From Candidatus Nealsonbacteria bacterium (lineage in GTDB: Bacteria > Patescibacteriota > Minisyncoccia > Minisyncoccales > MHMH01): a stretch of DNA of 64,000 bases. The DNA lies in contig JACPGX010000001.1 of assembly GCA_016188865.1 (NCBI GenBank), positions 13,197 to 77,196 on the forward strand, written 5' to 3'. Of this stretch, positions 29,585 through 42,439 are shown piece by piece. Position numbers and translations under genes: made by a program. Every line of letters starts with the position of its first letter. The stretch's first letter is position 1. Under the pieces are notes generated by a model. The model had not been told where the DNA came from. It was given only the letters and a program-made list of their open reading frames with translations, and did no database searches.

Positions 29585-30748
29585 TTAACCCGAGGTTTTT
29601 TTACTTAATAGAATTTCCAGATAAGATTTTTTAGTGGTGTCTTTTTTCCTGATGCCGAGCTTTTTCAAGAGTTCGGTGATTTCAGCTTTCCCCTCGTGAT
29701 TCTTAGCGCGGAATTCCAAAAATTCTCCGTTGTTTTCTATTCTATCCATAACGAGTTCCAGATTATCTCTTTCAGAAAATTTTCGCCTTATTTTTTTCAG
29801 AGAAAGCGTTCTTTTATATCCCAACTTTTCCAGTGCGTCTTTTAAACCGGGCTCCACCTCAAACTCAATTTTGGGCTTAATCCTGAAAGAGCCACTGCAT
29901 ACAGGACCTTTGTAGGCAAGAAAATATCTGCCCCCCTCTTCCCTTATGCGCATCAACTCTCCCTTATAATTCTTTTCCCAATTAGGAGCAGAATAGTAGG
30001 TGTCCTGCTGGAGAGCGCTGGATCGCAATCGAAAGCCAATCTTTGCCAATTCGTCCAGAGGAATTTCCCGCCTCAAAAATACTTTAATCTGGATTTCCTG
30101 ACTCTGGCACGATTCAGCTTCAATTTCCGGAACATACTGATTAACGATTATTACATCGGCCCGGGATTTTGTCGGCTCAACGTGCAGCTTATACATCGGA
30201 TAAACGGTTTCTACATACTGCCTAAAAATATCCCGCTCTGTCTGGCCGGTTCTGCCGACATCCCTAAGAAGCCTGCGCAATAAACTTCCGTGAACGCTTA
30301 TATCCACAAAAATTTTACAATCAACTCTGCTGACAATGGTATCATGCAAAGCAAAGAGGCCCTCCAGAATGATTAAGTCAGCCGATTGGAATTCTTCGTA
30401 TCCTTCTCTCGTGCCTGTCTCAAAGGAATAGATTGATTTTTGGATCGAAAGGCCGCATTTTAAAAGTTCCAGGTGCCACTTCAGAAGATCAAGATCAAGA
30501 GCCCGCGGCTCATCCCAATTGTCAGAGCCGATGCTCTCCATGAAATGCCGGCCCTTGAAATAATCGTCCATGCTTAAGATAACTGACCCGGGAAAGCAAT
30601 CGTGAAGACTCTTGGCTACTCTCGTTGTTTTGCCCGAACCCGAACCTCCGGCAACCCCTATAATCAACGGTTTCGTTTTCTTTATCATTCTTTTTATTCT
30701 GCGCTGGATGACTGGCAGTCCTTTGTTTAATTCGTAAGTCTTAGACAA
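29585..30748 (-). CDS. uridine kinase/PRK-family P-loop kinase fused to C-terminal CYTH domain
   Basis: IIGVAGGSGSGKTT P-loop; C-terminal beta-rich EIQIKVFLRREI.. region; probable TTG start (30748) 5 nt after GGAGGTG inside upstream gene end. Confidence 0.7.
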   Translation of the reverse strand: MSKTYELNKGLPVIQRRIKRMIKKTKPLIIGVAGGSGSGKTTRVAKSLHDCFPGSVILSMDDYFKGRHFMESIGSDNWDEPRALDLDLLKWHLELLKCGLSIQKSIYSFETGTREGYEEFQSADLIILEGLFALHDTIVSRVDCKIFVDISVHGSLLRRLLRDVGRTGQTERDIFRQYVETVYPMYKLHVEPTKSRADVIIVNQYVPEIEAESCQSQEIQIKVFLRREIPLDELAKIGFRLRSSALQQDTYYSAPNWEKNYKGELMRIREEGGRYFLAYKGPVCSGSFRIKPKIEFEVEPGLKDALEKLGYKRTLSLKKIRRKFSERDNLELVMDRIENNGEFLEFRAKNHEGKAEITELLKKLGIRKKDTTKKSYLEILLSKKTSG

Positions 30749-31220
30749 TTTTACACCTCCATTCTTCCGGAATAGCGTCGAGTTTCGCCAAATTATGATT
30801 TTCAAATCTTGGATCACCCGTCACTTCTTCGGTCATAATGCCCGTAGGCATTTCAAAAGCATCATCTTTTGATTTTTTCTCGAACTCCAGCAAAACTAAG
30901 CCGCCTAATTGAGCAAGAAAAACATCGAGCTCCAAAATGCCAATGAGATGTCTTGTCTTTCTGATTTTGTTAAACTTTCTGACTCTTAAAAGCGTATTGG
31001 CAAAAGTGCGATGAATTTCCTGCTCATACTCCCGATTAACGCCCGGCTTCTGCTTTATTTTTATTGTCAAATAGTAAGTATCGAAATTCTCAACCCTCAC
31101 TCTAATCGGCGGGTCAATGGAAATATACCATTGAGTGATTTCTTTGCTAGGATATTCAAGATAGCTTCTCGGAAGCGCCTTCACCAAAAATTTTTTTTCA
31201 TTCTCAATCTTTAATTTCAC
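30741..31220 (-). CDS. CYTH-domain (triphosphate tunnel metalloenzyme) protein
   Basis: KLKIENEKKFLV (ExExK) N-terminal motif; probable GTG start at 31220 just after Nudix stop. Confidence 0.7.
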   Translation of the reverse strand: MKLKIENEKKFLVKALPRSYLEYPSKEITQWYISIDPPIRVRVENFDTYYLTIKIKQKPGVNREYEQEIHRTFANTLLRVRKFNKIRKTRHLIGILELDVFLAQLGGLVLLEFEKKSKDDAFEMPTGIMTEEVTGDPRFENHNLAKLDAIPEEWRCKIV

Positions 31221-31221
31221 G

Positions 31222-31626
31222 CTATCCTTCCCTTTTCGAATCATTGATTATCTTGCGATGATCAAATCCTATATTCTCGGGAAGTTGATCCAAAGGGAAA
31301 AATTGAAATTCCAGCGACTCATCGTTAAGACAAATCTCCCCCTTTGTTCTCTCTAAAAGAAAAACCATGGAAACTACGTGGTACCTTGGGTCTCTCTTGG
31401 GATCAGAATACACTCCAATTAATTTTTTAATCCTCACTGAAATTCCCAATTCTTCTTTCATTTCCCTTTTAACCGCTTCTTCAACAGTTTCTCCGTATTC
31501 AACATGACCGCCGGGAATCACCCAATACCCGATAAAGGGATAATAACTCCGTTTCTCCAATAAAATCTTCCCTTCTTCCAAAATCACTCCATCCACGGCT
31601 AAAATCGGACTTCTCGGCTTTTCCAT
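31222..31626 (-). CDS. NUDIX hydrolase
   Basis: Nudix box GGHVEYGETVEEAVKREMKEELG; AAGGAGGAAGG SD. Confidence 0.85.
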   Translation of the reverse strand: MEKPRSPILAVDGVILEEGKILLEKRSYYPFIGYWVIPGGHVEYGETVEEAVKREMKEELGISVRIKKLIGVYSDPKRDPRYHVVSMVFLLERTKGEICLNDESLEFQFFPLDQLPENIGFDHRKIINDSKREG

Positions 31627-31766: not shown

Positions 31767-32360
31767 ATGAGCCACATCGCGGTTTACAAGACAACGCTGG
31801 GAGAGGTTAATACAGATATTCTGAAAAAAACCCTGGAAATCCTTGCGCTGGAGGAAACCGGCATAGAAATACGCGATTATATAGAAGATTACTACGGGAA
31901 AAAACATAGTTCATGGGAAGGAAATAAGATCATCGGAGCTATATTCAGCCGCCAATTGCAAAAAGGAGTTGGCGTCAGCGTAGATAAGCAGGGGCATCTT
32001 GTTTTTATTTCGCATGAACTAGGACCGGCCTTTGAAAAAATAAAAGCCAGAATTGAGCATATCTATAAAGTGGTTGCTCTGGCAATCGCCCTCCAAAATA
32101 TGGGGTACGAAATCCAGGCAGATGAAAAAATGACGACCCTCGAGGCAACTCTTAATAAAAATAAAATCAGCATTGAAATGAAGGGCAAAGGAGATGTTGC
32201 CACCGACCTTGAAGGATTTGCCGGTAAAACCTGCTTTGAAGAAGCGCAAAAATTAGCAGAAATGCTGAAAGAATTGGGGGTGAACGTTGATGCCAAAGAT
32301 TTGCAGCCAAAACCAGAAAGCCAAATCGAACCGCCCGAAAGGCAAAAACAAAGCTCCTAG
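31767..32360 (+). CDS. DUF1257(Ycf35)-like N-terminal domain fused to DUF2997-like C-terminal domain
   Basis: 197 aa; starts MSHIAVYKTTL; C-terminal ISIEMKGKGDVATDLEGFAGKTCFEEAQKLAEMLKELG; AAGGGGGA SD. Family assignment from memory of family signatures. Confidence 0.6.
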   Translation: MSHIAVYKTTLGEVNTDILKKTLEILALEETGIEIRDYIEDYYGKKHSSWEGNKIIGAIFSRQLQKGVGVSVDKQGHLVFISHELGPAFEKIKARIEHIYKVVALAIALQNMGYEIQADEKMTTLEATLNKNKISIEMKGKGDVATDLEGFAGKTCFEEAQKLAEMLKELGVNVDAKDLQPKPESQIEPPERQKQSS

Positions 32361-32361
32361 T

Positions 32362-32502
32362 ATGATGGTAATTTCTGTCTTGTCAAATGGCGACATTATG
32401 GTGCAAGATTACTCGCATCAAGATGATCGCCAAAAACTCGTTAAAATGCTTCAAAAAATGGGAATAAAAACAGAAGCTATTATTGACAGTCTTTGCGGTT
32501 AG
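32362..32502 (+). CDS. 46-aa mini-protein (DUF2997-shaped, lacks the Cys)
   Basis: MMVISVLSNGDIMVQDYSHQDDRQKLVKMLQKMGIKTEAIIDSLCG; ATG 1 nt after upstream stop; ORF-track 32287 start overlaps gene 1. Confidence 0.5.
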   Translation: MMVISVLSNGDIMVQDYSHQDDRQKLVKMLQKMGIKTEAIIDSLCG

Positions 32503-32512
32503 GGGAGGTAAG

Positions 32513-34330
32513 ATGGACGAAAAAAATAATTTGCCCGAGTGGTTTAATGATCTTGTCACTCAATATCAGGCTGGCATCAGCCGGGAATTTATACTTTTTG
32601 GGAATATCGCTGACTTGATTCGTAATCCTGACGACGAACCGGAAAAACAGTATATTTCTTTTCGAGAATTTTGGGAGAAAATTTTTGAAGAACGTGAAAT
32701 GGTTATTCTTTACAGCATGGCCTGGGGACTCCGTTTCCCTAACAAAGATATGGAAGAACGTTTTAGAATAGCTTCCGGATTCGACCAGCCAGACTCAAGC
32801 TCAACAAGTCCTCTGGCAAAAGTCGGCGTCCTGCAGAAAAGACGGCTTCCTCAAGATCCAGAAACCTGCCTTCTGCTTATTGAAAGAGCGCTTAGAAATA
32901 TACCGAAAATAGCGGTGATGATCTACTTTGCTCACCACGTTGTCCCGGCTGGAGGTCCCGGCGGGACAACGCAGACACCCTCGGAAAGAGTAAACATTGA
33001 AAGACTTGCCCAGTGGGCTTCGAGCGTAGGAATCAAAGAAAGCAAGGGCATTGTCCTATTATTTACTGATAAAATTGCGAACCTTGCCTCGGAACTGCGA
33101 GAAACTAACAGTGGCGTTAAACCGATTATGGTGCTCAAGCCTTCAAGGGCCGAAAGAAAAGAATTTTTGCAATCCATTACCTGCAAGCCACAGCCGAAGA
33201 AAAAGAAACAGCCGCCAGTTGATAGCGAAGGAAAATTTTTAGTACCGGAAGATTTCAACCTGGACGAATTCACCCACGCTACTCAGGGAATGGGCTTCCA
33301 GCAGATTCTTGATATTTTCCTTCGCAGCAAAGAAAGAAAGGGGGCAGTAAATTTAGATTATGTAAAAGAAGAAAAAAAGAAAATACTGAACAGCGAATTC
33401 GGCGAAGTTATGGAGGTTATGGAACCTGCAAGCGGATTCGACGATGTCGGAGGATTGGAGTATATAAAGAAATATTTTAACGTTATTCTTGACGCCATAA
33501 AGAAAGGTGAAAAAAGACTCGTCCCGATGGGAATCACCTTGATGGGTCCTCCGGGAACCGGAAAGACAAAGATTCTTGAGGCACTGGCCTTCGAAGCAGG
33601 CTTCAACTTTGTCAAAGCTAAAAATCTCCGAAACATGTGGGTCGGCGGCTCGGAAGAGAGGATGCAGACTTTCAAATACGGTCTTTATTCACTGGCGCCG
33701 GTTGTGGTTAACAATGATGAGGCCGATCTCGCCGAAGCCGACCGCAATTCTCCGAAAGGAGATTCCGGTGTATCGGAAAGGCACATGAGAGAATGGATGG
33801 ATATGCTGTCCGATCCGAAAATCCGCGGCCAAATTATTGTAATCAACTGCACCAATAGACCCGACAGGCTTGATCCGGCTCTCAAAAGAAGCGGGAGAAG
33901 CGATGACAGAGTCCTCCTGCCCATGCCTTCAGAAGAAGAGAGGAAAGTGATTTTTCCGGTAATGTTCAAGAGATACAAAATACCAACGAGTATTTCTGAC
34001 TTTACAGAATTTGCCGAACTGACAAACGGCTTATCCGGAGCAGATATCGAAAAAATAACATTGAACGCCTTCAAGCTGGCGTTTAAGCAATGCAGGGAAA
34101 AGGTCGACGCAGACGATTTGAAAAAGGCAATTGCCGATTTCATCCCAAGCGCCAGCCAGAAAGAAATCGATCTGATGACCCTTATGGGTATACTGGAATC
34201 TTCATCGCGTGAATTACTGCCGCCTCATATCAAAGAGATTGTCGAGGCGATTAAAAAACGAAACATGGTACCGAACCTTGACGGAATTCTTGCTGAAATC
34301 AAGGCCAGAAAAATTGTGGATATAGATTAA
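32513..34330 (+). CDS. AAA+ ATPase, Ycf46-like (long N-domain + one classical AAA module)
   Basis: Start at MDEKNN after GGGGAGG SD; Walker A GPPGTGKT, Walker B VVVNNDEAD, SRH TNRPDRLDPALKRSGRSD. Confidence 0.8.
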   Translation: MDEKNNLPEWFNDLVTQYQAGISREFILFGNIADLIRNPDDEPEKQYISFREFWEKIFEEREMVILYSMAWGLRFPNKDMEERFRIASGFDQPDSSSTSPLAKVGVLQKRRLPQDPETCLLLIERALRNIPKIAVMIYFAHHVVPAGGPGGTTQTPSERVNIERLAQWASSVGIKESKGIVLLFTDKIANLASELRETNSGVKPIMVLKPSRAERKEFLQSITCKPQPKKKKQPPVDSEGKFLVPEDFNLDEFTHATQGMGFQQILDIFLRSKERKGAVNLDYVKEEKKKILNSEFGEVMEVMEPASGFDDVGGLEYIKKYFNVILDAIKKGEKRLVPMGITLMGPPGTGKTKILEALAFEAGFNFVKAKNLRNMWVGGSEERMQTFKYGLYSLAPVVVNNDEADLAEADRNSPKGDSGVSERHMREWMDMLSDPKIRGQIIVINCTNRPDRLDPALKRSGRSDDRVLLPMPSEEERKVIFPVMFKRYKIPTSISDFTEFAELTNGLSGADIEKITLNAFKLAFKQCREKVDADDLKKAIADFIPSASQKEIDLMTLMGILESSSRELLPPHIKEIVEAIKKRNMVPNLDGILAEIKARKIVDID

Positions 34331-34347: not shown

Positions 34348-35286
34348 ATGGGTGGAGGGGGAACATATTACGATAGGGATGTAACCGACAGGAATCGAAG
34401 GACAGATAAGGGTTTTTCAGATGTTGCGGAATCAAAAATGTCTAGAAGCAAAGTTGATGCGGCAGTACTCCCTCGCGGCAGAAAACTTACCTGTACGGCT
34501 AAAAGTCCTGTTGTTTATGCATTTGATGTAACTGGTTCTATGGGCGATCTGCCAAAAATAATTTTTGACAAAATGCCAATGATGGCAGGCCAGTTGATAG
34601 AGAAGGGTTACCTTGAAGATGTGATGATGAGCCTTTCGGCCGTGGGCGATATTCTAAGTGACCAGGCGCCTCTGCAAGTGTGTGATTTCGCTCTTGTTAA
34701 GAATCTGGACGAGTGGCTGCAAAGAATCTGGCTGGAAGGCCAGGGGGGAGGGCAAGCGCGGGAATCGTACGAGTTTATTGCCTACTTCTATGCGAAAATG
34801 TGCGATATTCCAAATGCTGAAACGCCGATATTTCTTTTCACCGGAGACGAAGGGTTCAGAGAAAACCTGCCCGCAGCTACCCTTAGGGAATATTTTGGCA
34901 AAGGAAGTGAAAACACTGACGCCAAAAGCATCTTCGAAGAGTTAAAAAAGAAATTCAAGGGCAATGTATTTCTCATTCATCGGCGTTACAATCAAGGCGA
35001 CCAAGAAATTGTAGCGCAATGGGAAAATGTCCTTGGTAAAGAGAGAGTAATTAAACTTGGCAGTGATTTGGCCATCGCTGATGTAACTTTAGGAGTATTC
35101 GCAATCGTCGCCGGTAAGCGCACCCTTGAAGAATATCTCCAAGACATGAAAACCAGGGGCCAAGACGACCAAAGAATTGCCGAGGTCAGAAAATCCTTGG
35201 AGGTACTGGCTGCTATGATAAAACCCGCCCGCAAAATTTCCAAAAAAGCACCGGCAACAGAAAAGAAAAAGCCGGGAAGGATTTAA
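34348..35286 (+). CDS. vWA-domain protein (MIDAS DxTGS) with basic C-terminal tail KKKPGRI
   Basis: 312 aa; VVYAFDVTGSMGD, ..DQAPLQV.., LEGQGGGQARESYE; AGGAGG SD. Confidence 0.7.
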   Translation: MGGGGTYYDRDVTDRNRRTDKGFSDVAESKMSRSKVDAAVLPRGRKLTCTAKSPVVYAFDVTGSMGDLPKIIFDKMPMMAGQLIEKGYLEDVMMSLSAVGDILSDQAPLQVCDFALVKNLDEWLQRIWLEGQGGGQARESYEFIAYFYAKMCDIPNAETPIFLFTGDEGFRENLPAATLREYFGKGSENTDAKSIFEELKKKFKGNVFLIHRRYNQGDQEIVAQWENVLGKERVIKLGSDLAIADVTLGVFAIVAGKRTLEEYLQDMKTRGQDDQRIAEVRKSLEVLAAMIKPARKISKKAPATEKKKPGRI

Positions 35287-35298
35287 AGGAGGTAGATA

Positions 35299-35763
35299 AT
35301 GATTGTAAAACTCCCTGTGCCAATTTCATCTATTATAGACCAGGCAGTTGATATTTTCGTTTCCAGTCACTCTGGAGTAGAAACTGATAAAAGATACCAA
35401 GGCGCCGACCTATGGATGATACGCAAACACGAAACAGGAAATAGCGATGAGCCGTCTATTGTTTCGCGGCGAATAACAATCGCGGCATATCCAGAAAACG
35501 AAGATGAATTAGTTTTCATACCCGACATTATTGTAACCAAGGCAAACAGCGGTCGCTATGTTCCTACGGCCGAGAAACGAAGGGAAAATATGAGGCGTCT
35601 TTCTATTTTTGATATTGAGGGCCGCTTGTTTCGTAAACGAAACGAAAATCAGAGAAGGAAAGAACTCGAAAAGATAAGAAATGAGATGGTGAAAATATTA
35701 AACTCTGCTTGGGTTGCCACAAACAATCTTTCAACGGCGGATGCGACAGAATTAGTTCCGTAA
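35299..35763 (+). CDS. hypothetical protein, last gene of operon
   Basis: 154 aa, AGGAGG SD, no recognisable motif. Confidence 0.6.
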   Translation: MIVKLPVPISSIIDQAVDIFVSSHSGVETDKRYQGADLWMIRKHETGNSDEPSIVSRRITIAAYPENEDELVFIPDIIVTKANSGRYVPTAEKRRENMRRLSIFDIEGRLFRKRNENQRRKELEKIRNEMVKILNSAWVATNNLSTADATELVP

Positions 35764-35785
35764 TAAGTTTAGATAGTTGTAAATC

Positions 35786-35826
35786 AAAACCCGATGTTTA
35801 CATCGTCAACATCGGGTTTTTTGTTT
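35786..35826 (+). terminator. intrinsic terminator of the 31767-35763 operon
   Basis: aaaacccgatgtt/aacatcgggtttt 13-bp stem + T-run. Confidence 0.8.
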
Positions 35827-35853
35827 AAAACTAACGATGTCGTTCTTCGTTAG
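35827..35853. repeat. hairpin repeat i of Y1-transposase-like gene 3 (3' flank)
   Basis: aaaactaacgatgtcgttcttcgttag; ctaacga/tcgttag stem; abuts stop codon. Confidence 0.8.
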
Positions 35854-36600
35854 TTATTCAATGGCGACTTGTTCCGAATCGGCCAATTCTCTTTTTACTT
35901 GCAGCCAATCATTGACTAATCTTCGGGCTTCTTTAACGCCGCCCATTTCATTAATCAGCCATTCCCTGGCAGTGACGGACGGAAAATTTTTATTGCCAAG
36001 GCAATCGAGATAGCTTGACCAACGATATTCTTCTTCAAGAAATTTAATAATTTTATTTAAATCTTTAATTTTGATTCCCTCTTCTTTCCACTTCGGACAA
36101 ATAATTGCTACTGGATTGGTATGAATATAGACAAAAACAATTTTTAATTGGTTGTCGTTAGTAATATAAACTATTTTATATCTTCCCTGAAAAACATGCC
36201 CCGCTCTTTTATATTTCTGATTATAGTAATGTCCGTATCCAGTCCCAATTTTTCTCATGAGTTTAATTATACCGCCATCTTTGACTTGTCGCACCAACAG
36301 ATGAACATGATTTAACATCAAACAAAATGCCAATATCTCTACTATAATTTCTCTTTTTTCATCTCTTATATTTACTAAACTAACGATGTCGTTCTTCGTT
36401 AATTTTCGTTTTAGAGAAAAATGGCGGGCAACACGGAATTTTGAAGAAACTGGCTTTAAGTCGTTGAATACAAATAAATTATGGATCATTTGCAAATAAT
36501 CTTGCTTATCACGAAAAAGCTTTAGGCCATCTACTGCCCGAATAACAATGTGGTATATTTCCTTAGTAACTAATGGTGGTCTTCTGCCTTTATTCTTCAT
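35854..36600 (-). CDS. HUH/Y1 transposase-like protein, copy 3
   Basis: 248 aa; HUH LMLNHVHLLV, Tyr motif VYIHTNPV. Confidence 0.8.
   Translation of the reverse strand: MKNKGRRPPLVTKEIYHIVIRAVDGLKLFRDKQDYLQMIHNLFVFNDLKPVSSKFRVARHFSLKRKLTKNDIVSLVNIRDEKREIIVEILAFCLMLNHVHLLVRQVKDGGIIKLMRKIGTGYGHYYNQKYKRAGHVFQGRYKIVYITNDNQLKIVFVYIHTNPVAIICPKWKEEGIKIKDLNKIIKFLEEEYRWSSYLDCLGNKNFPSVTAREWLINEMGGVKEARRLVNDWLQVKRELADSEQVAIE
36376..36403. repeat. hairpin repeat ii, inside the ORF of copy 3
   Basis: taaactaacgatgtcgttcttcgttaat; encodes ..LTKNDIVSLV.. in the pre-HUH linker. Confidence 0.8.
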
Positions 36601-36799: not shown

Positions 36800-39229
36800 A
36801 TGGTTAAAAGAAGTATGGCGAAACTAAAAGGATTAACCATTGCATTGTGCCAAATGAAGGTAGTCCCGGGGCGTCCCGACCTTAACGCCGCTTACATTAT
36901 TGAAGAAATTAAAAAAGCAAAAAACCGCGGCGTGGACATTATCGTTTTCCCGGAATTGTGCACAACCGGCTACATTGTCGGCGACATCTTTGAAGACGAT
37001 TTCTTTATAGAAGACGTACTTTCTTGGAATAAAAACATTATTGAAGCCACCAGAAACGGCGTTACGGTTGTTTTCGGCACCATAACTGTTTCCCAAAATC
37101 AAAGGGGCGAAGATGGCAGACAGCGTAAACACAATACCGTCGTTACCGCGCAAAACGGCAAGGTGCTGCTGGCTGTCCCTAAGACTCTTCAGCCGAATTA
37201 CCGTTTTTTTAACGATGATAAACATTTTTATTCTTCGCGTAAAATAGCGCAAGAACAAAATATCTCTTTACAAAAAATCCTCAAACCGGTAGAAGTTGAA
37301 ACTAAAATTGGAAAGGTTAAGATCGGCGCTATTGTCTGCGAAGATATGTGGCACAAAGACTACCCTTTCAACCCGACCAAAATCCTGACAGATAACGGAG
37401 CTGAACTTATTATCAATGTTTCTGCTTCACCTTGGACGTGGCAAAAAAACCGCAAACGCCACCAAATTGTCAAAGAATTACTGCAAGAGTGCAAAATTCC
37501 CTTCGTTTATGTAAACAACACGGGTGTTCAAAATACAGGGAAAAACATTATTGTTTTTGACGGAAGCTCAACTGTATACGATGAAAAAGGCGAGATTGTT
37601 TTTGATGTCGAGCCCTATGAAGGTGGCTCTTACGATTTTAAATTCGCCAAAGACGTAAAACCTTTGAAAACAAAGCCGCAAGATGATACTGCAGAACTTT
37701 ATAACGCCATGCTTTGCGCGACTAAAACAATGACGCCTCCGAATAAAAAAGTGCTTGTCGGGTTAAGCGGCGGGATTGATTCTGCTGTTGTCTGCGCTCT
37801 TTTGGTGGACGCCCTAGGCAAAGACCGAGTAATGGCAATAAACATGCCCATGCCCTACAACAGTCAGAAAACTCGCGATTTCGCAGCGCTTATTGCTAAA
37901 AATCTGGGAATTCAATACGAAGTCGTTCCTATTGGTGAAATCGTTGAGGCGGTTTGCAAATCAAGGCAAATTGAACCGGGAACTCTTGCCTATGAAAATA
38001 TCCAAGCGCGGGCAAGGAGAGAAATCTTATCGACTACGGCCGATGGTTTCTTTGTCTGCTGTTCCAATAAGACAGAAATTGCTTTCGGTTATGGCACTCT
38101 TTACGGAGATATTGCCGGATATTTTGCGCCATTGGGCGACTTAGTAAAAAGAGAAGTTAGGCAAATTGCCGCTTATCAAAATCAAACAAGATTCAAACAA
38201 AAAATTATCCCCGAAGAATGCATTAACCAAACGCCAACCGCCGAACTTAAAGAAAACCAAAAAGATCCCTTTGATTACGGCGATTTAACTAAAAGGGGCT
38301 ATCACGACGAGATGATCAGGGCTTTTACCGAGTTTCGCAAAAATCCCGAGTGGTTTATCGAATCGTATCTTAAGAGCAAGTTGGAAGAAGAACTTTTGCT
38401 TGAGCCCGGAACCTTAGTCCGTCTTTTCCCGACCCCTAAAGACTTTGTGAACGACCTGCAACATTGGTGGAAAACGTTTCACGGATCGTATTTTAAGAGA
38501 GTTCAATGCCCGCCCATACCAATTTTCAGCAAACGGGCTTTCGGCAGAGACCTTGAGGAATCTTTAATGCAGCCTCATCTCACCCAAAGATACTTATATT
38601 TAGAAAAATATTTGCTTTCTCAAGGAAAATCTCCAAAGCAAAGAGTTGCGATTTTTGGCGGAAGTTTTAATCCTCCGGCCATGAATCATAAGTTCATCGT
38701 TGCCGAACTTTCCCGAGTGTTTGAAAAAGTGGTGGTCGTGCCTTGCGGCATCAGAACAGATAAACCATCTACCACGGTGGCTTCTCCCCAGCAAAGAAAA
38801 GTAATGGCAGAAATGACCTTCTCGGGTATGCCCAATGTCCAGCTTGATTTTTATGACCTCGAGAAAAATGTTTTTACTCCTACTTATCTTCTGCAGGAAC
38901 GCTACGCCAAACTTTTTCCTGATTCGGAAATATGGATTGCCGTCGGCGAAGATTTAGTGGCAGGCGGAAAGGAAGGCAATTCGGAAATTCAAAAATCCTG
39001 GAAAAAAGGAAAAGAAATCTGGAAAAATTTGAAATTCGTTGTTGTCAGCCAGCCAAATAAAAGACCAAACCCTCAAGACCTGCCGCCAACAAACGAATTG
39101 ATAGCAATAGAAATTATTTTGGGAAGAAGCACCGAGTTAAGAGAGAAAATCTCCAAAGGGCAATCGATTGATGGCCTTGTCATACCGGAAGTAATGCGGT
39201 ATATTGAAGAACAGAAACTTTACAAATAG
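36800..39229 (+). CDS. nadE: glutamine-dependent NAD+ synthetase (CN-hydrolase + NAD synthase) fused to C-terminal NMN/NaMN adenylyltransferase
   Basis: 809 aa; ..FPELCTTGY.., PP-loop GLSGGIDSAV, C-terminal IFGGSFNPPAMNHKFIV (eukaryote-like NMNAT GSFNP..MH). Confidence 0.8.
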   Translation: MVKRSMAKLKGLTIALCQMKVVPGRPDLNAAYIIEEIKKAKNRGVDIIVFPELCTTGYIVGDIFEDDFFIEDVLSWNKNIIEATRNGVTVVFGTITVSQNQRGEDGRQRKHNTVVTAQNGKVLLAVPKTLQPNYRFFNDDKHFYSSRKIAQEQNISLQKILKPVEVETKIGKVKIGAIVCEDMWHKDYPFNPTKILTDNGAELIINVSASPWTWQKNRKRHQIVKELLQECKIPFVYVNNTGVQNTGKNIIVFDGSSTVYDEKGEIVFDVEPYEGGSYDFKFAKDVKPLKTKPQDDTAELYNAMLCATKTMTPPNKKVLVGLSGGIDSAVVCALLVDALGKDRVMAINMPMPYNSQKTRDFAALIAKNLGIQYEVVPIGEIVEAVCKSRQIEPGTLAYENIQARARREILSTTADGFFVCCSNKTEIAFGYGTLYGDIAGYFAPLGDLVKREVRQIAAYQNQTRFKQKIIPEECINQTPTAELKENQKDPFDYGDLTKRGYHDEMIRAFTEFRKNPEWFIESYLKSKLEEELLLEPGTLVRLFPTPKDFVNDLQHWWKTFHGSYFKRVQCPPIPIFSKRAFGRDLEESLMQPHLTQRYLYLEKYLLSQGKSPKQRVAIFGGSFNPPAMNHKFIVAELSRVFEKVVVVPCGIRTDKPSTTVASPQQRKVMAEMTFSGMPNVQLDFYDLEKNVFTPTYLLQERYAKLFPDSEIWIAVGEDLVAGGKEGNSEIQKSWKKGKEIWKNLKFVVVSQPNKRPNPQDLPPTNELIAIEIILGRSTELREKISKGQSIDGLVIPEVMRYIEEQKLYK

Positions 39230-39249: not shown

Positions 39250-40155
39250 ATGGGATCTGGTAAATGGTCGGATAATGATTACTATCTTAAAGAAAGTGCG
39301 CGTAGAGTAAGCGGTGAAAGCGCTTTTAAGTACACGGACAACGAAATGAGCAGGGTTAGCCGGGATAAATGGAAGGTTAACCAAAAAATGGACCCGAAAG
39401 GCGTAACGCGCGAAAGCAGGGACAGCGCCACCCATCCGGAATCACTGGCTATCGGAGTCATTTTTGACCACACGGGCTCTATGGGAGAAACCCCGAGAGT
39501 CCTGCAAAGAGCATTAGCCCGCATGATGGGAACTCTCTTAGAAAAAGGCAAAATCGCCAATCCCCAAGTTCTCTTCGGCGCAAATGGCGACGCTACGACT
39601 GATCAGGCGCCATTGCAAATAGGCCAGTTTGAATCTGATATCACTATGGAAGATGATTTGGGCCGGCTCTTGCTGGAAGGAAACGGCGGACACTACGGGC
39701 AAGAATCATACGAACTTGCACTGTATTTCATGGCCCGGCACACTTCAATGGATTGCTTAGAGAAAAGAAAGAAAAAGGGTTACCTCTTCCTTATCGGCGA
39801 TGAACTTCCATATAATATTAAAAAGAGTGAGGTCAAAAGCATTATTGGCGACGAGCTTCCTCAAAATATCCCAGTTGAACAAATTGTCGCTGAGGCCAAA
39901 GAAAAGTATCACATCTTTTTCCTTATTCCTACTGGAGCTCATGGCGGAAGAAATCCCGCGGTAATGCAGCGCTGGGTAGAATTGCTTGGGCAAGAATTCG
40001 TAGTCCAGCTGGAAAATCCCGAAGAGATCGCTGAAAGAATTTCCCTTATAGTGAAAACGAACGAAGAAAAGCTTGCGCCGGCAAAAGGCAAAACAAAAAT
40101 ACCAACTACTGCCCCCAAGGAACCTGCCCGAAAGAAAAAACCCGGAAGGATATAA
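39250..40155 (+). CDS. vWA-domain protein, paralogue of 34348-35286, same KKKPGRI tail
   Basis: 301 aa; VIFDHTGSMGE, ..DQAPLQI.., LEGNGGHYGQESYE; AAAGGAGG SD. Confidence 0.7.
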   Translation: MGSGKWSDNDYYLKESARRVSGESAFKYTDNEMSRVSRDKWKVNQKMDPKGVTRESRDSATHPESLAIGVIFDHTGSMGETPRVLQRALARMMGTLLEKGKIANPQVLFGANGDATTDQAPLQIGQFESDITMEDDLGRLLLEGNGGHYGQESYELALYFMARHTSMDCLEKRKKKGYLFLIGDELPYNIKKSEVKSIIGDELPQNIPVEQIVAEAKEKYHIFFLIPTGAHGGRNPAVMQRWVELLGQEFVVQLENPEEIAERISLIVKTNEEKLAPAKGKTKIPTTAPKEPARKKKPGRI

Positions 40156-40197: not shown

Positions 40198-40250
40198 AAA
40201 AAATATGATAAAGTGCAATGTTCGTACATTGAAAAAAGGAGGTGGTAAAA

Positions 40251-41219
40251 ATGCTCATAGCTACCTTACCGACGCTTACGGGAACAGAAACGCAGAATCT
40301 TTCAGAAGAAATTTTAAGACATTCTTTAGTAGATGGCGCAAGATATAATACCGGGGGAGCAAGCCCCTACACGCCCAAGCAAATCCTCGAAACACTCAAA
40401 CCTATTGCGGATCGTTACAAAAAAATTCTTTATGTTGATCTTGAAGGAAGACAGGCTCGAGTTGCCGCCTGGACTCCTTTTTCTAGAGGAGCAGTAACCC
40501 TCAACCGCGATTTTAACATTGAGCTTCCAGGCAAGATTCATTTTCGCCGAGGCGGCTGGTGCGACATCGTCAACGCCTTACCGGAAGAACGAAAAATTTT
40601 CTTTAAATCGCACAGAACTAAAGAGGAGTATTATTTAGGCGAATCGCAAAGCGTTAATGTTGTTGCTAAAAATTTTGAAGTGAAAGGCTATCTTTACGGC
40701 GACGATTTTGAATATATCAAAGCAGCTGTTGAGCTAGATATATCTCACTTCATGCTGTCTTTTACCGAGAGTCTGTACGACGTAGTTGATTTTTACGCCG
40801 CGTACCATGAGCACGGCACCATCAACGATTTGCCAAATCCGCAGCTCGTATTGAAAATAGAGTCTCAAAAAGGAATTGAATTCGTTAAAAAATCTTCACG
40901 CCATTTTCTGCGGGAATTCAGGCTTATGGCCGCCAGAGACGATTTATTCCTTAGTTTTGCTGATAAGCGCCCCGAATTTCTCTCAGCCCTTAAGCTTATC
41001 ATCAAGAAAAATCCCAAGGCGATTCTTGCTTCCAAAATTCTATCCGGCCTGCTGGATTATCCCTACGAAGTCTCGGTTGGCGATATGACGGATATAACCC
41101 TGATGAACCATCTCGGTTACCGCCACTTTATGCTTCAAGATGAGCTGGCTGACAATTTTGAGCTGACAATGCAAAACTGGCAAAAAATAATCGTACCTCT
41201 TTTAAGGGAGAAATTATGA
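40251..41219 (+). CDS. pyruvate-kinase-barrel-like protein lacking B and C domains
   Basis: MLIATLPT.., ARYNTGGAS, LVLKIESQKGIE, LMAARDDLFLSF, ..SVGDMTDITL.. parallel PK motifs; ATG after AAGGAGGTG SD. Confidence 0.55.
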   Translation: MLIATLPTLTGTETQNLSEEILRHSLVDGARYNTGGASPYTPKQILETLKPIADRYKKILYVDLEGRQARVAAWTPFSRGAVTLNRDFNIELPGKIHFRRGGWCDIVNALPEERKIFFKSHRTKEEYYLGESQSVNVVAKNFEVKGYLYGDDFEYIKAAVELDISHFMLSFTESLYDVVDFYAAYHEHGTINDLPNPQLVLKIESQKGIEFVKKSSRHFLREFRLMAARDDLFLSFADKRPEFLSALKLIIKKNPKAILASKILSGLLDYPYEVSVGDMTDITLMNHLGYRHFMLQDELADNFELTMQNWQKIIVPLLREKL

Positions 41220-42439
41220 CGGGAGAAGCGATTCTTGTCGGCGGATTGGGTTTCGGAGACGAAGGCAAGGGAAGCATAGTAGATTATCTTGTTCGCACGC
41301 AAGGAGCAAAACTTGTCGTACGCTACAACGGCGGAGCGCAAGCTGGCCATAATGTCGTTACTCCTGAGGGGTTGCATCACACTTTTTCCCAGTTCGGATC
41401 AGGCACTTTCGTGCCGGGCGTAAAAACACATCTTTCTCGATTTATGATCCTAAATCCGCTTGGCATGGTAAGGGAAGAAGAGCATCTCCGTAGTTTGGGG
41501 ATCAAAGACGTTTTTCAAAGAACGACGATTGATGAGCTGGCTCTTGTTACCACGCCGTTTCAAATAGCGGTTAACCGGCTGCTGGAAACTTGGCGGGGCG
41601 ATAAAAAACACGGCAGCTGCGGCATAGGCATCGGCCAAACTATTGAAGATTACGAAAAATATGGAGATAAAGTATTGTTTGCCAAAGATTTGAAAAATCC
41701 CGCAATTATGTCAAAAAAACTGGAGTTTATTCAAAAACAATGCCTCCAAGCAGTTCGCAGTATAACCTCAAATCTTTCTAACACCGAAACAGTAAAAACA
41801 GAGCTGGAATGGCTGGAATGTAAAAATGCTGTAGATTATTTAGTAAAAGAATTTTCTCAGTTCAGCGCCTGCGCAAGAATCGTTGGTGAAAAATATTTAA
41901 CTAAACTGCTTGAGGATAGTTCGCCTGTAATTTTTGAAGGCGCCCAAGGAGCTCTGCTTGATAGAAACTGCGGATTTAAGCCGCATATTACGAAAACCGA
42001 TACTACCCTTGCTAATGCCTATGTACTTCTCAGGGAAGCCGGCTATAAGGGAAAAATAACTAAAATTGGCGTATTACGCGCTTATGCCACTCGCCACGGC
42101 GCGGGCCCCCTTCCCACAGAAGATGAAAAACTGACCAAGATGCTCAATGACGATCATAATGTCTACAATCAATGGCAAGATAACTTCAGAGTCGGCTGGC
42201 TCGATATTCCATTAACTAAATATGCGATTATGATTAATGACGGAGTGGATTTTATAGCCCTAACAAATCTTGATCGTCTTTCAATCCTTGGGACCATAAA
42301 AGTGCGCATTAATTCCGGATTTATAGAATTTTCCGCTTGGCAAGAATTAGTCGATTTCTTACAAAACAAAAACGGACTGAATTGCCCGATTAAAATTCTA
42401 TCATTCGGCCCAACCTGGAAAGAAAAAAAAATAAACTAA
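41216..42439 (+). CDS. adenylosuccinate synthetase family protein (diverged, archaeal-short-type-like)
   Basis: 407 aa; GFGDEGKGSIVDYL, RYNGGAQAGHNVV, GSCGIGIGQT; ATGA overlap with upstream gene. Confidence 0.7.
   Translation: MTGEAILVGGLGFGDEGKGSIVDYLVRTQGAKLVVRYNGGAQAGHNVVTPEGLHHTFSQFGSGTFVPGVKTHLSRFMILNPLGMVREEEHLRSLGIKDVFQRTTIDELALVTTPFQIAVNRLLETWRGDKKHGSCGIGIGQTIEDYEKYGDKVLFAKDLKNPAIMSKKLEFIQKQCLQAVRSITSNLSNTETVKTELEWLECKNAVDYLVKEFSQFSACARIVGEKYLTKLLEDSSPVIFEGAQGALLDRNCGFKPHITKTDTTLANAYVLLREAGYKGKITKIGVLRAYATRHGAGPLPTEDEKLTKMLNDDHNVYNQWQDNFRVGWLDIPLTKYAIMINDGVDFIALTNLDRLSILGTIKVRINSGFIEFSAWQELVDFLQNKNGLNCPIKILSFGPTWKEKKIN

What the first reader, a model, noticed from the sequence alone, without database searches (positions are those of the whole stretch)
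39250..40155. Two diverged vWA paralogues end in the same basic tail ...KKKPGRI
The proteins at 34348-35286 and 39250-40155 share only motif-level similarity: D.TGSMG, DQAPLQ, LEG.GG...ESYE.A.YF.A, F..GDE, Q.W...LG.E.V..L. Yet their last residues are the same. One ends ..KKAPATEKKKPGRI* and the other ..KEPARKKKPGRI*. A terminal peptide kept intact while the rest drifts suggests a docking or recognition peptide. It could, for example, insert into the AAA+ ring encoded at 32513-34330, or act as a basic nucleic-acid hook. The second paralogue is transcribed with the NadE-NMNAT fusion, not with the ATPase, so one ATPase could serve two adaptor proteins.
Basis: seen in the sequence. Interest (0 to 1): 0.6.

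Follow-up and report, generated by a model that had tools for sequence, protein, structure and literature searches.

The report
Shared docking tail on vWA proteins
Two diverged vWA proteins in this candidate-phyla-radiation genome end in the same short peptide, and comparison with thousands of relatives suggests it is a conserved handle for the neighbouring protein-remodelling machine in an uncharacterised gene system also carried by phages.

Summary
The ORFs at 34348-35286 and 39250-40155 are 30% identical vWA-fold proteins, and both end in KKKPGRI. The tail codons differ at three synonymous sites.

The tail is family-wide. 86 of 120 close homologues of one paralogue end in R-[LI], and about 98 of 120 of the other end in PGR[ILFV], GR[ILV]F or W[KQ]L. 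About half of 147 diverse representatives end in [RK]-hydrophobic. Only the last 2-6 residues are conserved. The lysine-rich linker is lineage-specific, so a nucleic-acid hook is not supported.

- Ten independent loci carry both paralogues, and their tails match in nine (permutation p = 5e-5 on nine of them), including exotic forms such as EFPTL/EFPTL.
- The tail type co-varies with one aspartate (D40) in the degenerate first domain of the neighbouring Cdc48-like AAA ATPase.
- In bacteria and mycobacteriophages without the ATPase, a J-domain pseudokinase sits in the same position. The tail is usually lost when that gene or its J domain is missing.

Best reading: the tail is a short docking or engagement motif for the system's remodeller, and one ATPase serves both vWA proteins. 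No binding was shown. The surrounding vWA, pyruvate-kinase-like and PurA-like system appears undescribed.

The parts
32513..34330 (+). AAA ATPase, 605 aa. The N-terminal half is a degenerate, Walker-A-less D1-like domain. The C-terminal half is an active classical AAA domain (GPPGTGKT, DEAD-like Walker B, pore loop MWVG, SRH arginines).
   Evidence: Pfam AAA and AAA_lid_3. NCBIfam CDC48/PAN/FtsH-like, below cut-offs. PDB profile hits to VAT/p97 D2, E = 3e-82. AF2 model pLDDT 89. Foldseek aligns about 600 columns with p97/Cdc48 D1-D2.
32624..32632 (+). Codons for N38-P39-D40, the 'NPD' hairpin of the D1-like domain. It sits where the P-loop would be. D40 is the residue that co-varies with the vWA tail type.
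   Evidence: D is present in 25 of 25 ATPases with G-[RK]-x tails and in 6 of 21 with other tails. It is the most extreme of 130 conserved columns. The 15 non-D ATPases form 9 separate clades on the tree. The position relative to beta1 and helix 1 comes from the model's secondary structure.
34348..35286 (+). vWA paralogue 1, 312 aa, 17 nt downstream of the AAA gene. MIDAS-type motif D60-x-T62-G-S64 ... D167.
   Evidence: Hits phrog_2971. No Pfam, NCBIfam or PADLOC hit.
35200..35262 (+). Linker of paralogue 1, rich in Lys, Ala and Pro. Its length and sequence vary across the family.
   Evidence: The median stretch after the last conserved helix is 41 residues (range 0-124), with composition K 21%, A 15%, P 12%.
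35263..35283 (+). Tail of paralogue 1: KKKPGRI followed by the stop codon.
35299..36600 (.). Local insertion: a 154-aa ORF (+) and a REP-associated tyrosine transposase (-). It splits the ancestral operon and is not part of the system.
   Evidence: NCBIfam REP_Tyr_transpos, E = 1.5e-10, below cut-off. The insertion is absent from L003, L004 and L168, where vWA1 is followed directly by NadE-NMNAT.
36800..39229 (+). Fusion of glutamine-dependent NAD synthetase (CN hydrolase + NadE) with NMNAT-like cytidylyltransferase. Recurrent but not universal in these loci.
   Evidence: Pfam. Present in L003, L004, L089, L094, L095, L098 and L168.
39250..40155 (+). vWA paralogue 2, 301 aa. vWA fold with MIDAS-type D73-x-T75-G-S77 ... 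D184. Closest to the vWA proteins of the J-domain-type modules of Actinomycetota, Chloroflexota and Myxococcota (about 50% identity).
   Evidence: AF2 pLDDT 90. Foldseek hits to integrin I domains, NorD vWA and Ku80 vWA. Homologue survey.
40075..40131 (+). Disordered linker of paralogue 2.
   Evidence: pLDDT below 50 for residues 281-293.
40132..40152 (+). Tail of paralogue 2: KKKPGRI followed by the stop codon.
40242..41219 (+). Minimal pyruvate-kinase-like TIM barrel, 325 aa (A domain only).
   Evidence: A profile built from 31 loci hits pyruvate kinases at E = 1.9e-18. The invariant columns are R34, N36, D66, R73, S173, K205, I206, E207, G211, A231, D234, A260, S264, D281 and D300.
41216..42439 (+). 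PurA-like GTP-type ligase, 407 aa. It is the only protein linked to the vWA in both system types.
   Evidence: PDB PurA at E = 1e-70, but the Asp-binding loop T-T-G-R is replaced by a conserved W-Q-G-x-F. It lies next to the vWA in about 70 of 80 genome loci and in phages. It scores far below the purA and PurZ cut-offs.
31767..32360 (+). 197-aa ORF directly upstream of the AAA gene. Possibly part of the operon, but poorly conserved.
   Evidence: Detectably similar only in L003. No significant family hit.

Best explanation
The C-terminal peptide is a short linear docking or engagement motif. It is a hydrophobic last residue preceded by Arg/Lys, on a 25-60-residue disordered linker. It tethers the vWA protein to the ATP-driven remodeller encoded just upstream.

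In this genome the remodeller is a Cdc48-like AAA ATPase with a degenerate first domain. Both vWA paralogues carry the same tail because both are served by that one ATPase. The tail probably contacts the acidic 'NPD' hairpin (D40) of the degenerate domain. The long linker could then be engaged by the active ring.

In most other bacteria and in cluster C mycobacteriophages, a J-domain pseudokinase takes the ATPase's place. That protein would recruit Hsp70/DnaK.

The vWA domain, with an intact MIDAS-type site, would hold a partner. The most likely partner is the always-linked PurA-like enzyme or its target.

Shown: conservation of the tail, co-variation between paralogues, co-variation with AAA D40, and dependence of the tail on presence of the J-domain gene. 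Inferred: physical binding, the contact site, and what is remodelled.
For: 1. The tail is family-wide while the linker varies.
2. Tails match within a locus in 9 of 10 independent loci that carry both paralogues. The nine matching pairs (vWA1 tail first) are PGRI/PGRI twice (the window and L003), PGRL/IGRL, SWKL/GWKL, PGRIF/TGRIF, DWTL/DWTL, KWQV/KWKI, NFRF/DFKF and EFPTL/EFPTL. An exhaustive permutation test on the nine loci then in hand (eight matching) gave p = 5e-5. Codons differ synonymously in every pair shown, which excludes recent gene conversion.
3. Tail class switches at least 9 times on the AAA tree.
4. AAA D40 is 100% conserved with G-R tails and 29% otherwise. It is the top outlier of 130 conserved columns. 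Fisher p = 1e-7 and conservative p = 9e-4. Replacements include Y, L and C where the tail has W or F.
5. The AAA gene and the J-domain pseudokinase are mutually exclusive occupants of the slot upstream of the vWA.
6. In genome loci, 63 of 68 R-L-tailed vWA genes have the J-kinase gene, against 4-5 of 13 tail-less ones. Tail-less Streptomyces loci keep the kinase-like part but lack the J domain. Metagenome loci show the same trend.
7. No other protein of the loci carries such a tail.
8. PurA-like conserved columns are not relaxed in tail-less loci.
9. The vWA domain itself has no outlier comparable to D40.
10. Tail net charge anticorrelates best with the charge of AAA residues 1-66.
Against: - No physical or structural evidence of binding.
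- The co-variation is correlative and rests on 46 pairs and an NJ tree.
- vWA1 column E85 also tracks tail class, 0.88 against 0.33.
- There are exceptions. L089 has EWQL against PGRI. L113, L114 and L125 have an HPD J domain but tails ending KRT, KNR or CRR. L042, L066 and L075 keep R-L with no J-kinase found.
- The receptor in the J-type systems (pseudokinase or Hsp70) is unresolved. A C-terminal R-L is not a typical DnaK site.
- The charge anticorrelation at the hairpin itself is modest (rho = -0.39).
Confidence: 0.55

Rival explanations
1. The tail docks onto another shared component of the system, the PurA-like enzyme or the pyruvate-kinase-like protein. Its co-variation with the AAA ATPase would then be indirect.
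For: PurA-like is the only partner found in both AAA-type and J-type loci. A single shared receptor of any kind would explain the matched tails. The aspartate-binding loop of the PurA-like enzyme is remodelled, so it takes an unknown substrate.
Against: Tail loss tracks loss of the J-domain gene while PurA-like stays. No conserved PurA-like column is relaxed in tail-less loci; the lowest value is 0.75. The PK-like gene is absent from the actinobacterial loci that keep the tail. A small-sample class comparison of PurA-like and PK-like was uninformative.
Confidence: 0.1
2. The free C-terminal carboxylate and the preceding Arg act as an intrinsic ligand of a vWA MIDAS site or groove, in cis (autoinhibition) or in trans (head-to-tail or paralogue pairing). 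This would resemble peptide ligands of integrin I-like domains or the Ku-binding motifs of Ku80 vWA.
For: The fold matches integrin I domains and Ku80 vWA-peptide complexes. MIDAS-type residues are invariant. vWA1 columns E85, G87 and R271 associate with tail class. From my own recollection, not tested here, the XLF Ku-binding motif is a basic stretch followed by G-L-F near the C-terminus.
Against: AF2 with a deep alignment does not dock the tail in cis. Cis binding, or reciprocal binding between the paralogues, does not predict identical tails on both. There is no strict outlier column in the vWA domain. Self-binding does not explain why the tail disappears with the J-domain gene.
Confidence: 0.12
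3. The tail is a C-terminal degron read by housekeeping proteases or unfoldases such as ClpXP, FtsH or Lon. It sets vWA protein turnover rather than docking to the system's own ATPase.
For: It is a disordered linker with a hydrophobic C-terminal residue and a free carboxylate. From my own knowledge, it resembles the ssrA (LAA) and MuA (RRKKAI) tags of ClpX. The tail occurs in loci that have no dedicated AAA gene.
Against: Housekeeping receptors are highly conserved. They would not drive frequent lineage-specific switches (G-R-I, W-K-L, F-R-F, EFPTL) matched between paralogues. They also would not explain co-variation with D40 of the dedicated ATPase, or loss of the tail together with the J domain.
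Confidence: 0.1
4. The tail is a basic hook for nucleic acid or anionic membrane (AT-hook-like), or a compositional coincidence of lysine-rich low complexity in an AT-rich genome.
For: The local sequence is KKKPGRI after a lysine-rich linker. vWA1-family linkers are 21% Lys.
Against: 68 of 120 vWA2-family linkers are net acidic, and 62% of those keep the terminal [RK]-hydrophobic residues. There is no R-G-R-P core. W-K-L, DWTL and EFPTL variants are preceded by acidic residues. Conservation is concentrated in the last 2-6 residues. Synonymous differences show selection on the peptide.
Confidence: 0.03

Closest known systems
MoxR-class AAA+ / vWA partner pairs (RavA-ViaA, CbbQ-CbbO, NorQ-NorD, BchI-BchD)
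   Same: An ATPase ring gene lies next to a vWA-domain gene. The vWA MIDAS presumably grips a client while the ATPase supplies force. NorD vWA is among the best fold matches.
   Different: Here the ATPase is a classical Cdc48/FtsH-clade AAA with a degenerate D1-like domain, not MoxR. The link appears to run through a C-terminal peptide on a long linker. The ATPase can be replaced by a J-domain pseudokinase. There is no sequence-family match to known vWA families.
C-terminal recognition tags of AAA+ unfoldases (ssrA LAA and MuA RRKKAI for ClpX; non-polar tails for FtsH)
   Same: A short C-terminal peptide with a hydrophobic last residue and a free carboxylate sits on an unstructured segment next to a threading AAA ring. 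The comparison with these tags comes from my own knowledge.
   Different: The receptor is a dedicated ATPase that co-evolves with the tail. The co-varying residue lies in a P-loop-less first domain, not in a pore loop. The tagged protein may be an adaptor rather than a substrate for destruction, since no protease gene lies in the cluster.
Terminal docking motifs of chaperone and ATPase machines (HbYX of proteasomal ATPases, MIM-MIT of ESCRT-III/Vps4, Hsp70/Hsp90 EEVD with TPR or class B J-proteins)
   Same: A few C-terminal residues on a flexible tail give specificity for a partner in an ATP-driven remodelling machine. In the J-type loci the tail is tied to the presence of a J domain.
   Different: The sequence is different: there is no penultimate Tyr, no EEVD and no amphipathic MIM helix. 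The tail is on the vWA client or adaptor, not on the ATPase or chaperone.
TerY-P triad and vWA-ternary conflict systems (vWA + kinase + phosphatase; vWA-MoxR-VMAP)
   Same: A cytoplasmic vWA protein is encoded beside a kinase-like protein, in variable, horizontally mobile loci that also occur in phages.
   Different: There is no PADLOC hit to TerY-P or any other system for either vWA. No phosphatase gene was seen. The kinase-like partner carries a J domain and lacks the HRD aspartate (read directly from the sequences). The invariant companions are PurA-like and PK-like enzymes.

Membership tests
von Willebrand factor A (vWA) fold with MIDAS | Rossmann-like alpha/beta vWA fold | tested here: met
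   The AF2 model has pLDDT 90 and pTM 0.87. Foldseek probability is 1.00 to integrin I domains, NorD vWA and Ku80 vWA.
von Willebrand factor A (vWA) fold with MIDAS | MIDAS motif DxSxS ... T ... D | tested here: met
   D-x-T-G-S (D73/T75/S77 in vWA2, D60/T62/S64 in vWA1) and the G-D-E aspartate (D184 / D167) are invariant across both families. The middle Thr position was not assigned.
von Willebrand factor A (vWA) fold with MIDAS | Match to a curated vWA sequence family | tested here: not met
   No Pfam, NCBIfam or PADLOC hit at E <= 0.1, and no PDB sequence relative. The only hit is phrog_2971, of unknown function. This is a distinct, uncurated vWA family.
Classical AAA (Cdc48/p97-like, two-domain) | Walker A, Walker B, second region of homology, aromatic pore loop in an AAA domain | tested here: met
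   Pfam AAA at E = 3e-20 plus AAA_lid_3. GPPGTGKT, D402-E403, R459/R462 and W376-V-G are invariant or nearly invariant. PDB hits to VAT/p97 at E = 3e-82.
Classical AAA (Cdc48/p97-like, two-domain) | Two tandem AAA domains, and family-level score as CDC48 | tested here: inconclusive
   The model aligns over about 600 columns with p97 D1-D2. However, the first domain has no Walker A, there is no Cdc48 N domain, and the TIGR01243 score of 118 is far below the 803 cut-off.
MoxR-vWA chaperone pair | The ATPase belongs to the MoxR / AAA_3 / AAA_5 class | tested here: not met
   The best families are CDC48, PAN and FtsH. AAA_5 appears only at E = 0.074.
AT-hook DNA-binding motif | R-G-R-P core flanked by basic residues, conserved across homologues | tested here: not met
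   The tail is P-G-R-[IL]-COOH with no RGRP core. The basic flank is not conserved, and there are W-K-L and EFPTL variants.
HbYX proteasome-docking motif | Hydrophobic-Tyr-any residue at the extreme C-terminus | tested here: not met
   The penultimate residue is R, K, Q or T in nearly all tails; Tyr turned up only in the single outlier P0155 (...GKKYI). The last residue is hydrophobic.
ssrA/MuA-type C-terminal tags read by an AAA+ unfoldase | The free C-terminal carboxylate and terminal residues are bound by the ATPase, and deletion abolishes engagement | not testable with these tools
   Only indirect evidence is available: co-variation of tail class with AAA D40.
TerY-P / known anti-phage systems | Profile match of the components to PADLOC models | tested here: not met
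   No hit for either vWA, the PK-like protein or the PurA-like protein. The AAA gives only generic IetA/TRIP13 ATPase-domain hits.
Adenylosuccinate synthetase (PurA) / PurZ (neighbouring gene) | Aspartate-binding loop (T-T-G-R) and the equivalog score | tested here: not met
   The loop is replaced by a conserved W-Q-G-x-F. The score is 179 bits against a cut-off of 402 for purA, and 38 against 300 for PurZ. The P-loop GDEGKG, the G-H and FEGAQG are kept.

The most novel reading that the evidence does not exclude
The tail is a co-evolving 'address tag' read by the nucleotide-free, P-loop-less first domain of a dedicated Cdc48-like unfoldase. That would be a pseudo-ATPase pocket repurposed as a peptide receptor. 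In sister systems the same tag would be read by an Hsp70 recruited through a J-domain pseudokinase. The tag would place vWA adaptors, and through them a PurA-like/PK-like nucleotide-converting module linked to NAD synthesis, under chaperone control. This would define a widespread, uncharacterised system shared by CPR bacteria, soil bacteria and about 200 mycobacteriophages.
Probability: 0.3. Interest if true: 0.75.

Novelty: new variant of a known kind. Interest (0 to 1): 0.6.

Why it matters
C-terminal docking peptides that couple clients or adaptors to AAA+ or Hsp70 machines are a known principle. This one has features that make it unusually testable.

- It marks an uncurated vWA family with about 2,500 clusters at 50% identity.
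- The family sits in a conserved module with no described function: vWA, a pyruvate-kinase-like protein, a PurA-like protein, and either an AAA ATPase or a J-domain pseudokinase.
- The module occurs in many phyla and in cluster C mycobacteriophages, and it often lies beside NAD-synthesis genes.
- The tail gives a concrete experimental handle: delete or swap four residues, or mutate D40, to find what the remodeller acts on.
- The natural tail variants (G-R-I, W-K-L, F-R-F, EFPTL), matched between paralogues, amount to a ready-made specificity-swap experiment.
- It would also be an example of an AAA unfoldase and an Hsp70 co-chaperone being interchangeable within one system.

Tried and rejected
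- **Recent gene conversion as the cause of identical tails.** Rejected. There are synonymous differences in every pair shown, and no DNA similarity beyond the stop codon in the window pair.
- **Cis docking of the tail.** The AF2 monomer model leaves the tail and linker at low confidence.
- **Class-discriminating columns in the 19 AAA-type loci alone.** Too few sequences and confounded with phylogeny. This was superseded by the 46-pair analysis.
- **The vWA domain as its own receptor.** There are associated columns but no strict outlier.
- **PurA-like as the receptor.** Its conserved columns are not relaxed in tail-less loci.
- **The same tail on other proteins of the loci.** None found.
- **A conserved upstream ~200-aa partner.** Only L003 is detectably similar. 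I recalled a resemblance to DUF1257/DUF2997, but Pfam gave no hit.
- **Literature.** Seven full-text searches and two papers gave no description of this module. The phage NARP3 pathway is PnuC + NadR and is unrelated.
- **The search for related loci with the mixed two-family alignment.** Failed because no conserved stretch was available. It was repeated with one alignment per family.
- **Complex prediction.** Tail plus ATPase could not be run with the tools available.
Full report
**1. The observation**

The window is from a Candidatus Nealsonbacteria (CPR/Patescibacteria) MAG. The NCBI records for all three proteins are 100% identical (P0001, P0121, P0241).

- ORF 34348-35286 encodes 312 aa and ends ...KKAPATEKKKPGRI. 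ORF 39250-40155 encodes 301 aa and ends ...KEPARKKKPGRI.
- The two align end to end at 30% identity, E = 8e-28. They are real paralogues and share more than motifs.
- The seven shared tail codons differ at three synonymous positions. The DNA is unrelated after the stop codon and diverged before the tail.
- Neither protein hits Pfam, NCBIfam or PADLOC. Both hit phrog_2971, of unknown function.
- An AlphaFold2 model of paralogue 2 (pLDDT 90) is a vWA fold. Its best structural matches are integrin I domains, NorD vWA and Ku80 vWA.
- The MIDAS-type D-x-T-G-S and G-D-E residues are invariant in both families.
- The model ends in a helix (257-275) followed by a disordered linker and the tail.

**2. 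The tail is family-wide, but only its last residues are conserved**

- Of the 120 best homologues of paralogue 2, 86 end in R-L or R-I. Examples are VERL, TTRL, TDRL and PGRI, from Streptomyces, Nocardiopsis, Frankia, Labilithrix and many metagenomes.
- Of the 120 best homologues of paralogue 1, about 98 end in PGR[ILFV], GR[ILV]F, [SD]WKL or PWQL.
- A profile search of 1.84 billion cluster representatives found 2,494 family members. Of the best 147, 74 end in [RK]-hydrophobic. The extended consensus is G-h-x-[RT]-L-COOH.
- The linker varies in length: the median is 41 residues in one family and 58 in the other.
- The linker also varies in composition. It is K/A/P-rich in the CPR-type family but net acidic in 68 of 120 members of the other, and 62% of those acidic-linker proteins keep the tail.
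- So the lysine run in KKKPGRI is lineage-specific. The selected element is the terminal G-R-I. This removes the 'basic nucleic-acid hook' as a general explanation.

**3. Genomic context: one module, two alternative partners**

- The window cluster recurs in other CPR contigs (L003, L004, L168). Its order is AAA ATPase (32513-34330), vWA1, NadE-NMNAT fusion (36800-39229), vWA2, pyruvate-kinase-like (40242-41219), PurA-like (41216-42439).
- Those contigs lack the 154-aa ORF and the REP-type tyrosine transposase found at 35299-36600. That stretch is therefore a local insertion that splits one operon.
- In 80 genome loci from Actinomycetota, Chloroflexota, Planctomycetota and Myxococcota, the vWA2-type gene sits in a three-gene module: J-domain plus kinase-like protein, vWA, PurA-like. 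No AAA gene lies within 10 kb.
- Eighty metagenome loci found with vWA1 fall into two types. One is AAA-vWA-(PK-like)-PurA-like. The other is J-kinase-vWA-(PK-like)-PurA-like. No locus had both an AAA gene and a J-kinase gene.
- The J-type trio is present in about 200 Mycobacterium phages. An example is Tonenili gp106-gp105-gp104, whose vWA ends ...GADRL.
- A vWA-PurA pair lies beside NMNAT/Nudix and phosphoribosyltransferase genes in Rhizobium phage TM30.
- The PK-like protein is a genuine pyruvate-kinase A-domain homologue, E = 2e-18.
- The PurA-like protein keeps the P-loop, the catalytic His and FEGAQG. Its aspartate-binding T-T-G-R loop is replaced by a conserved W-Q-G-x-F.
- I found no paper that describes this module.

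**4. Tails of co-resident paralogues co-vary**

Ten independent loci carry both paralogues. Their tails, vWA1-type first and vWA2-type second:

| Locus | vWA1 tail | vWA2 tail |
|---|---|---|
| window | KKKPGRI | KKKPGRI |
| L003 | KPGRI | KPGRI |
| L004 | KPGRL | KIGRL |
| L094 | SSWKL | DGWKL |
| L098 | PGRIF | TGRIF |
| L100 | EDWTL | EDWTL |
| L102 | KWQV | KWKI (two copies) |
| L105 | NFRF | DFKF |
| L168 | GEFPTL | EEFPTL |
| L089 (the one mismatch) | EWQL | PGRI |

- An exhaustive permutation test on the first nine loci found (all but L168) gives p = 5e-5 for identity over the last four positions.
- The tail codons differ synonymously in every pair shown. The match is therefore maintained by selection.
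- Paralogue 2 of the window belongs to the family whose J-type members end G-x-x-R-L. Next to an AAA gene it carries the tail of its co-resident paralogue instead.
- The simplest reading is one shared, co-evolving receptor per genome.

**5. Which receptor?**

I paired 46 AAA proteins with the tail of the vWA encoded next to them.

- On an NJ tree of the ATPases the tail class changes at least nine times.
- Among 130 AAA columns that are at least 96% conserved when the tail is G-[RK]-x(F), the median conservation in the remaining ATPases is 100%.
- One column stands apart: D40 (window 32630-32632). It is 100% conserved with G-R tails and 29% otherwise.
- The 15 non-D ATPases form nine separate clades, all with non-G-R tails. 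Fisher p = 1e-7, and a conservative estimate is 0.457^9 = 9e-4.
- Replacements include Tyr, Leu and Cys in the clade whose tails have Trp or Phe, and Asn in the EFPTL locus.
- The AAA model (pLDDT 89) aligns over about 600 columns with p97/Cdc48 D1-D2. The N-terminal half is therefore a degenerate D1-like domain.
- The N38-P39-D40 hairpin follows strand beta1 where the Walker A loop would be. This placement is an inference from secondary structure.
- Tail net charge anticorrelates with AAA surface charge most strongly in residues 1-66: the eight most negative of 555 windows fall there.
- The same outlier test found nothing comparable in the vWA domain. The lowest value there is 0.83, and E85 stands out only at a laxer threshold.
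- PurA-like shows no relaxation in tail-less loci.
- No other protein in these loci carries such a tail.

**6. The J-type systems point the same way**

- In 81 genome loci, 68 vWA genes end R-[LIF].
- A J-kinase gene is found by tblastn in 63 of those 68, but in only 4-5 of the 13 tail-less loci.
- In tail-less Streptomyces loci such as L006, the upstream gene keeps the kinase-like part but has no J domain or HPD motif.
- Among loci with a kinase-like gene, the counts are: R-L with HPD 58, R-L without HPD 4, no tail without HPD 3, no tail with HPD 1.
- Metagenome J-type loci show the same but weaker trend. With HPD, 10 have a tail and 3 do not. With a kinase only, 5 have a tail and 9 do not.
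- So the tail is retained when an ATP-driven remodeller is encoded upstream, either the AAA ring or a J domain that would recruit Hsp70. It tends to decay when the remodeller is missing.

**7. Interpretation**

The best-supported explanation is that the tail is a short linear docking or engagement motif for the system's remodeller. In this genome, one Cdc48-like ATPase serves both vWA proteins through identical tails.

Steps that are shown:
- selection on the peptide;
- co-variation between paralogues;
- co-variation with AAA D40;
- co-occurrence with the J-domain gene.

Steps that are inferred:
- direct binding;
- the hairpin as the contact site;
- subsequent threading of the linker;
- the vWA MIDAS holding the PurA-like enzyme or its target.

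Rivals remain open at lower probability. They are docking to PurA-like or PK-like, a self or MIDAS ligand, and a housekeeping degron.

Exceptions are on record. L089 has mismatched tails. L113, L114 and L125 have J domains but non-hydrophobic tail ends. L042, L066 and L075 have tails but no J-kinase was found.

**8. Comparison and novelty**

- In kind, this resembles MoxR-vWA pairs. It also resembles terminal recognition peptides such as ssrA or MuA tags for ClpX, HbYX, MIM-MIT and EEVD.
- It is not a member of those families. The ATPase is not MoxR-class. The motif is neither HbYX nor an AT-hook. The vWA belongs to no curated family. No known defence-system model matches.
- I rate it a new variant of a known kind.
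- The surrounding system is arguably the more interesting object: vWA, PK-like, a PurA-like enzyme with a non-aspartate substrate loop, either an AAA or a J-domain pseudokinase, and a frequent NAD-synthesis neighbour. It occurs in bacteria, CPR and phages.
- The tail offers a simple way into that system.

Noticed in passing
window 35299-36600: A 154-aa ORF (+) and a REP-associated tyrosine transposase-like gene (-) lie between vWA1 and the NadE-NMNAT gene. Related contigs (L003, L004, L168) lack them. This looks like a mobile-element insertion that splits the operon.
   Followed up: partly
window 41216-42439; loci L001-L085, L166, L167: The PurA-like enzyme linked to the vWA keeps the GTP and IMP-type motifs. 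Its aspartate-binding T-T-G-R loop is replaced by a conserved W-Q-G-x-F, so it probably joins a different amine. Its substrate is unknown.
   Followed up: partly
window 40242-41219: A minimal pyruvate-kinase-like barrel of about 300 aa (A domain only), with many invariant columns (including R34, N36, D66, K205, E207 and D234), is a frequent member of the module. PDB also holds a 321-aa 'pyruvate kinase' (8iw2) that aligns over nearly its full length.
   Followed up: partly
window 34348-34390 and 39250-39290: Both vWA families have strongly conserved N-termini that start Met-Gly: MGGGGxYYDRD in one and MGxxxWSxDxY in the other. Gly2 is nearly invariant. A free N-terminal glycine after Met removal could matter, for example as a nucleophile or contact. 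This was not examined.
   Followed up: no
L166 (Mycobacterium phage Tonenili 155176-158643); about 200 cluster C mycobacteriophages: The phages carry the trio J-domain kinase-like protein, vWA (ending ...GADRL) and PurA-like. In the record they are annotated as kinase, hypothetical protein and adenylosuccinate synthetase.
   Followed up: partly
L002 8166-8942; L167 1603-3269; window 36800-39229: There is a recurrent link to NAD metabolism. A Nudix/NrtR-type regulator lies upstream of the module in Stackebrandtia. NMNAT/Nudix and a phosphoribosyltransferase lie near it in Rhizobium phage TM30. NadE-NMNAT fusions lie inside it in CPR.
   Followed up: no
L001 8829-9950, L166 4892-5965 and other J-type loci: The kinase-like partner has an N-terminal J domain (HPD). 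Its kinase-like part reads H-G-A where the catalytic H-R-D would be, so it is likely a pseudokinase. Shorter J-less versions in some metagenome loci have a canonical GxGxxG loop.
   Followed up: partly
L102 2936-7600: One locus carries three vWA paralogues, one vWA1-type and two vWA2-type. All end W-[QK]-[VI].
   Followed up: partly
window 31767-32502: A 197-aa ORF upstream of the AAA gene, and an overlapping 71-aa ORF in another frame. The 197-aa protein reminded me of DUF1257/DUF2997 proteins, which I recalled as sitting next to Ycf46-type ATPases in cyanobacteria. Pfam gave no hit, and only L003 has a detectable homologue.
   Followed up: partly
window 29585-31626 (- strand): Three minus-strand ORFs lie just upstream of the cluster. 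By eye, their translations look like a P-loop uridine-kinase-like protein with a C-terminal extension, a small CYTH-like protein and a Nudix hydrolase. No tool was run on them.
   Followed up: no
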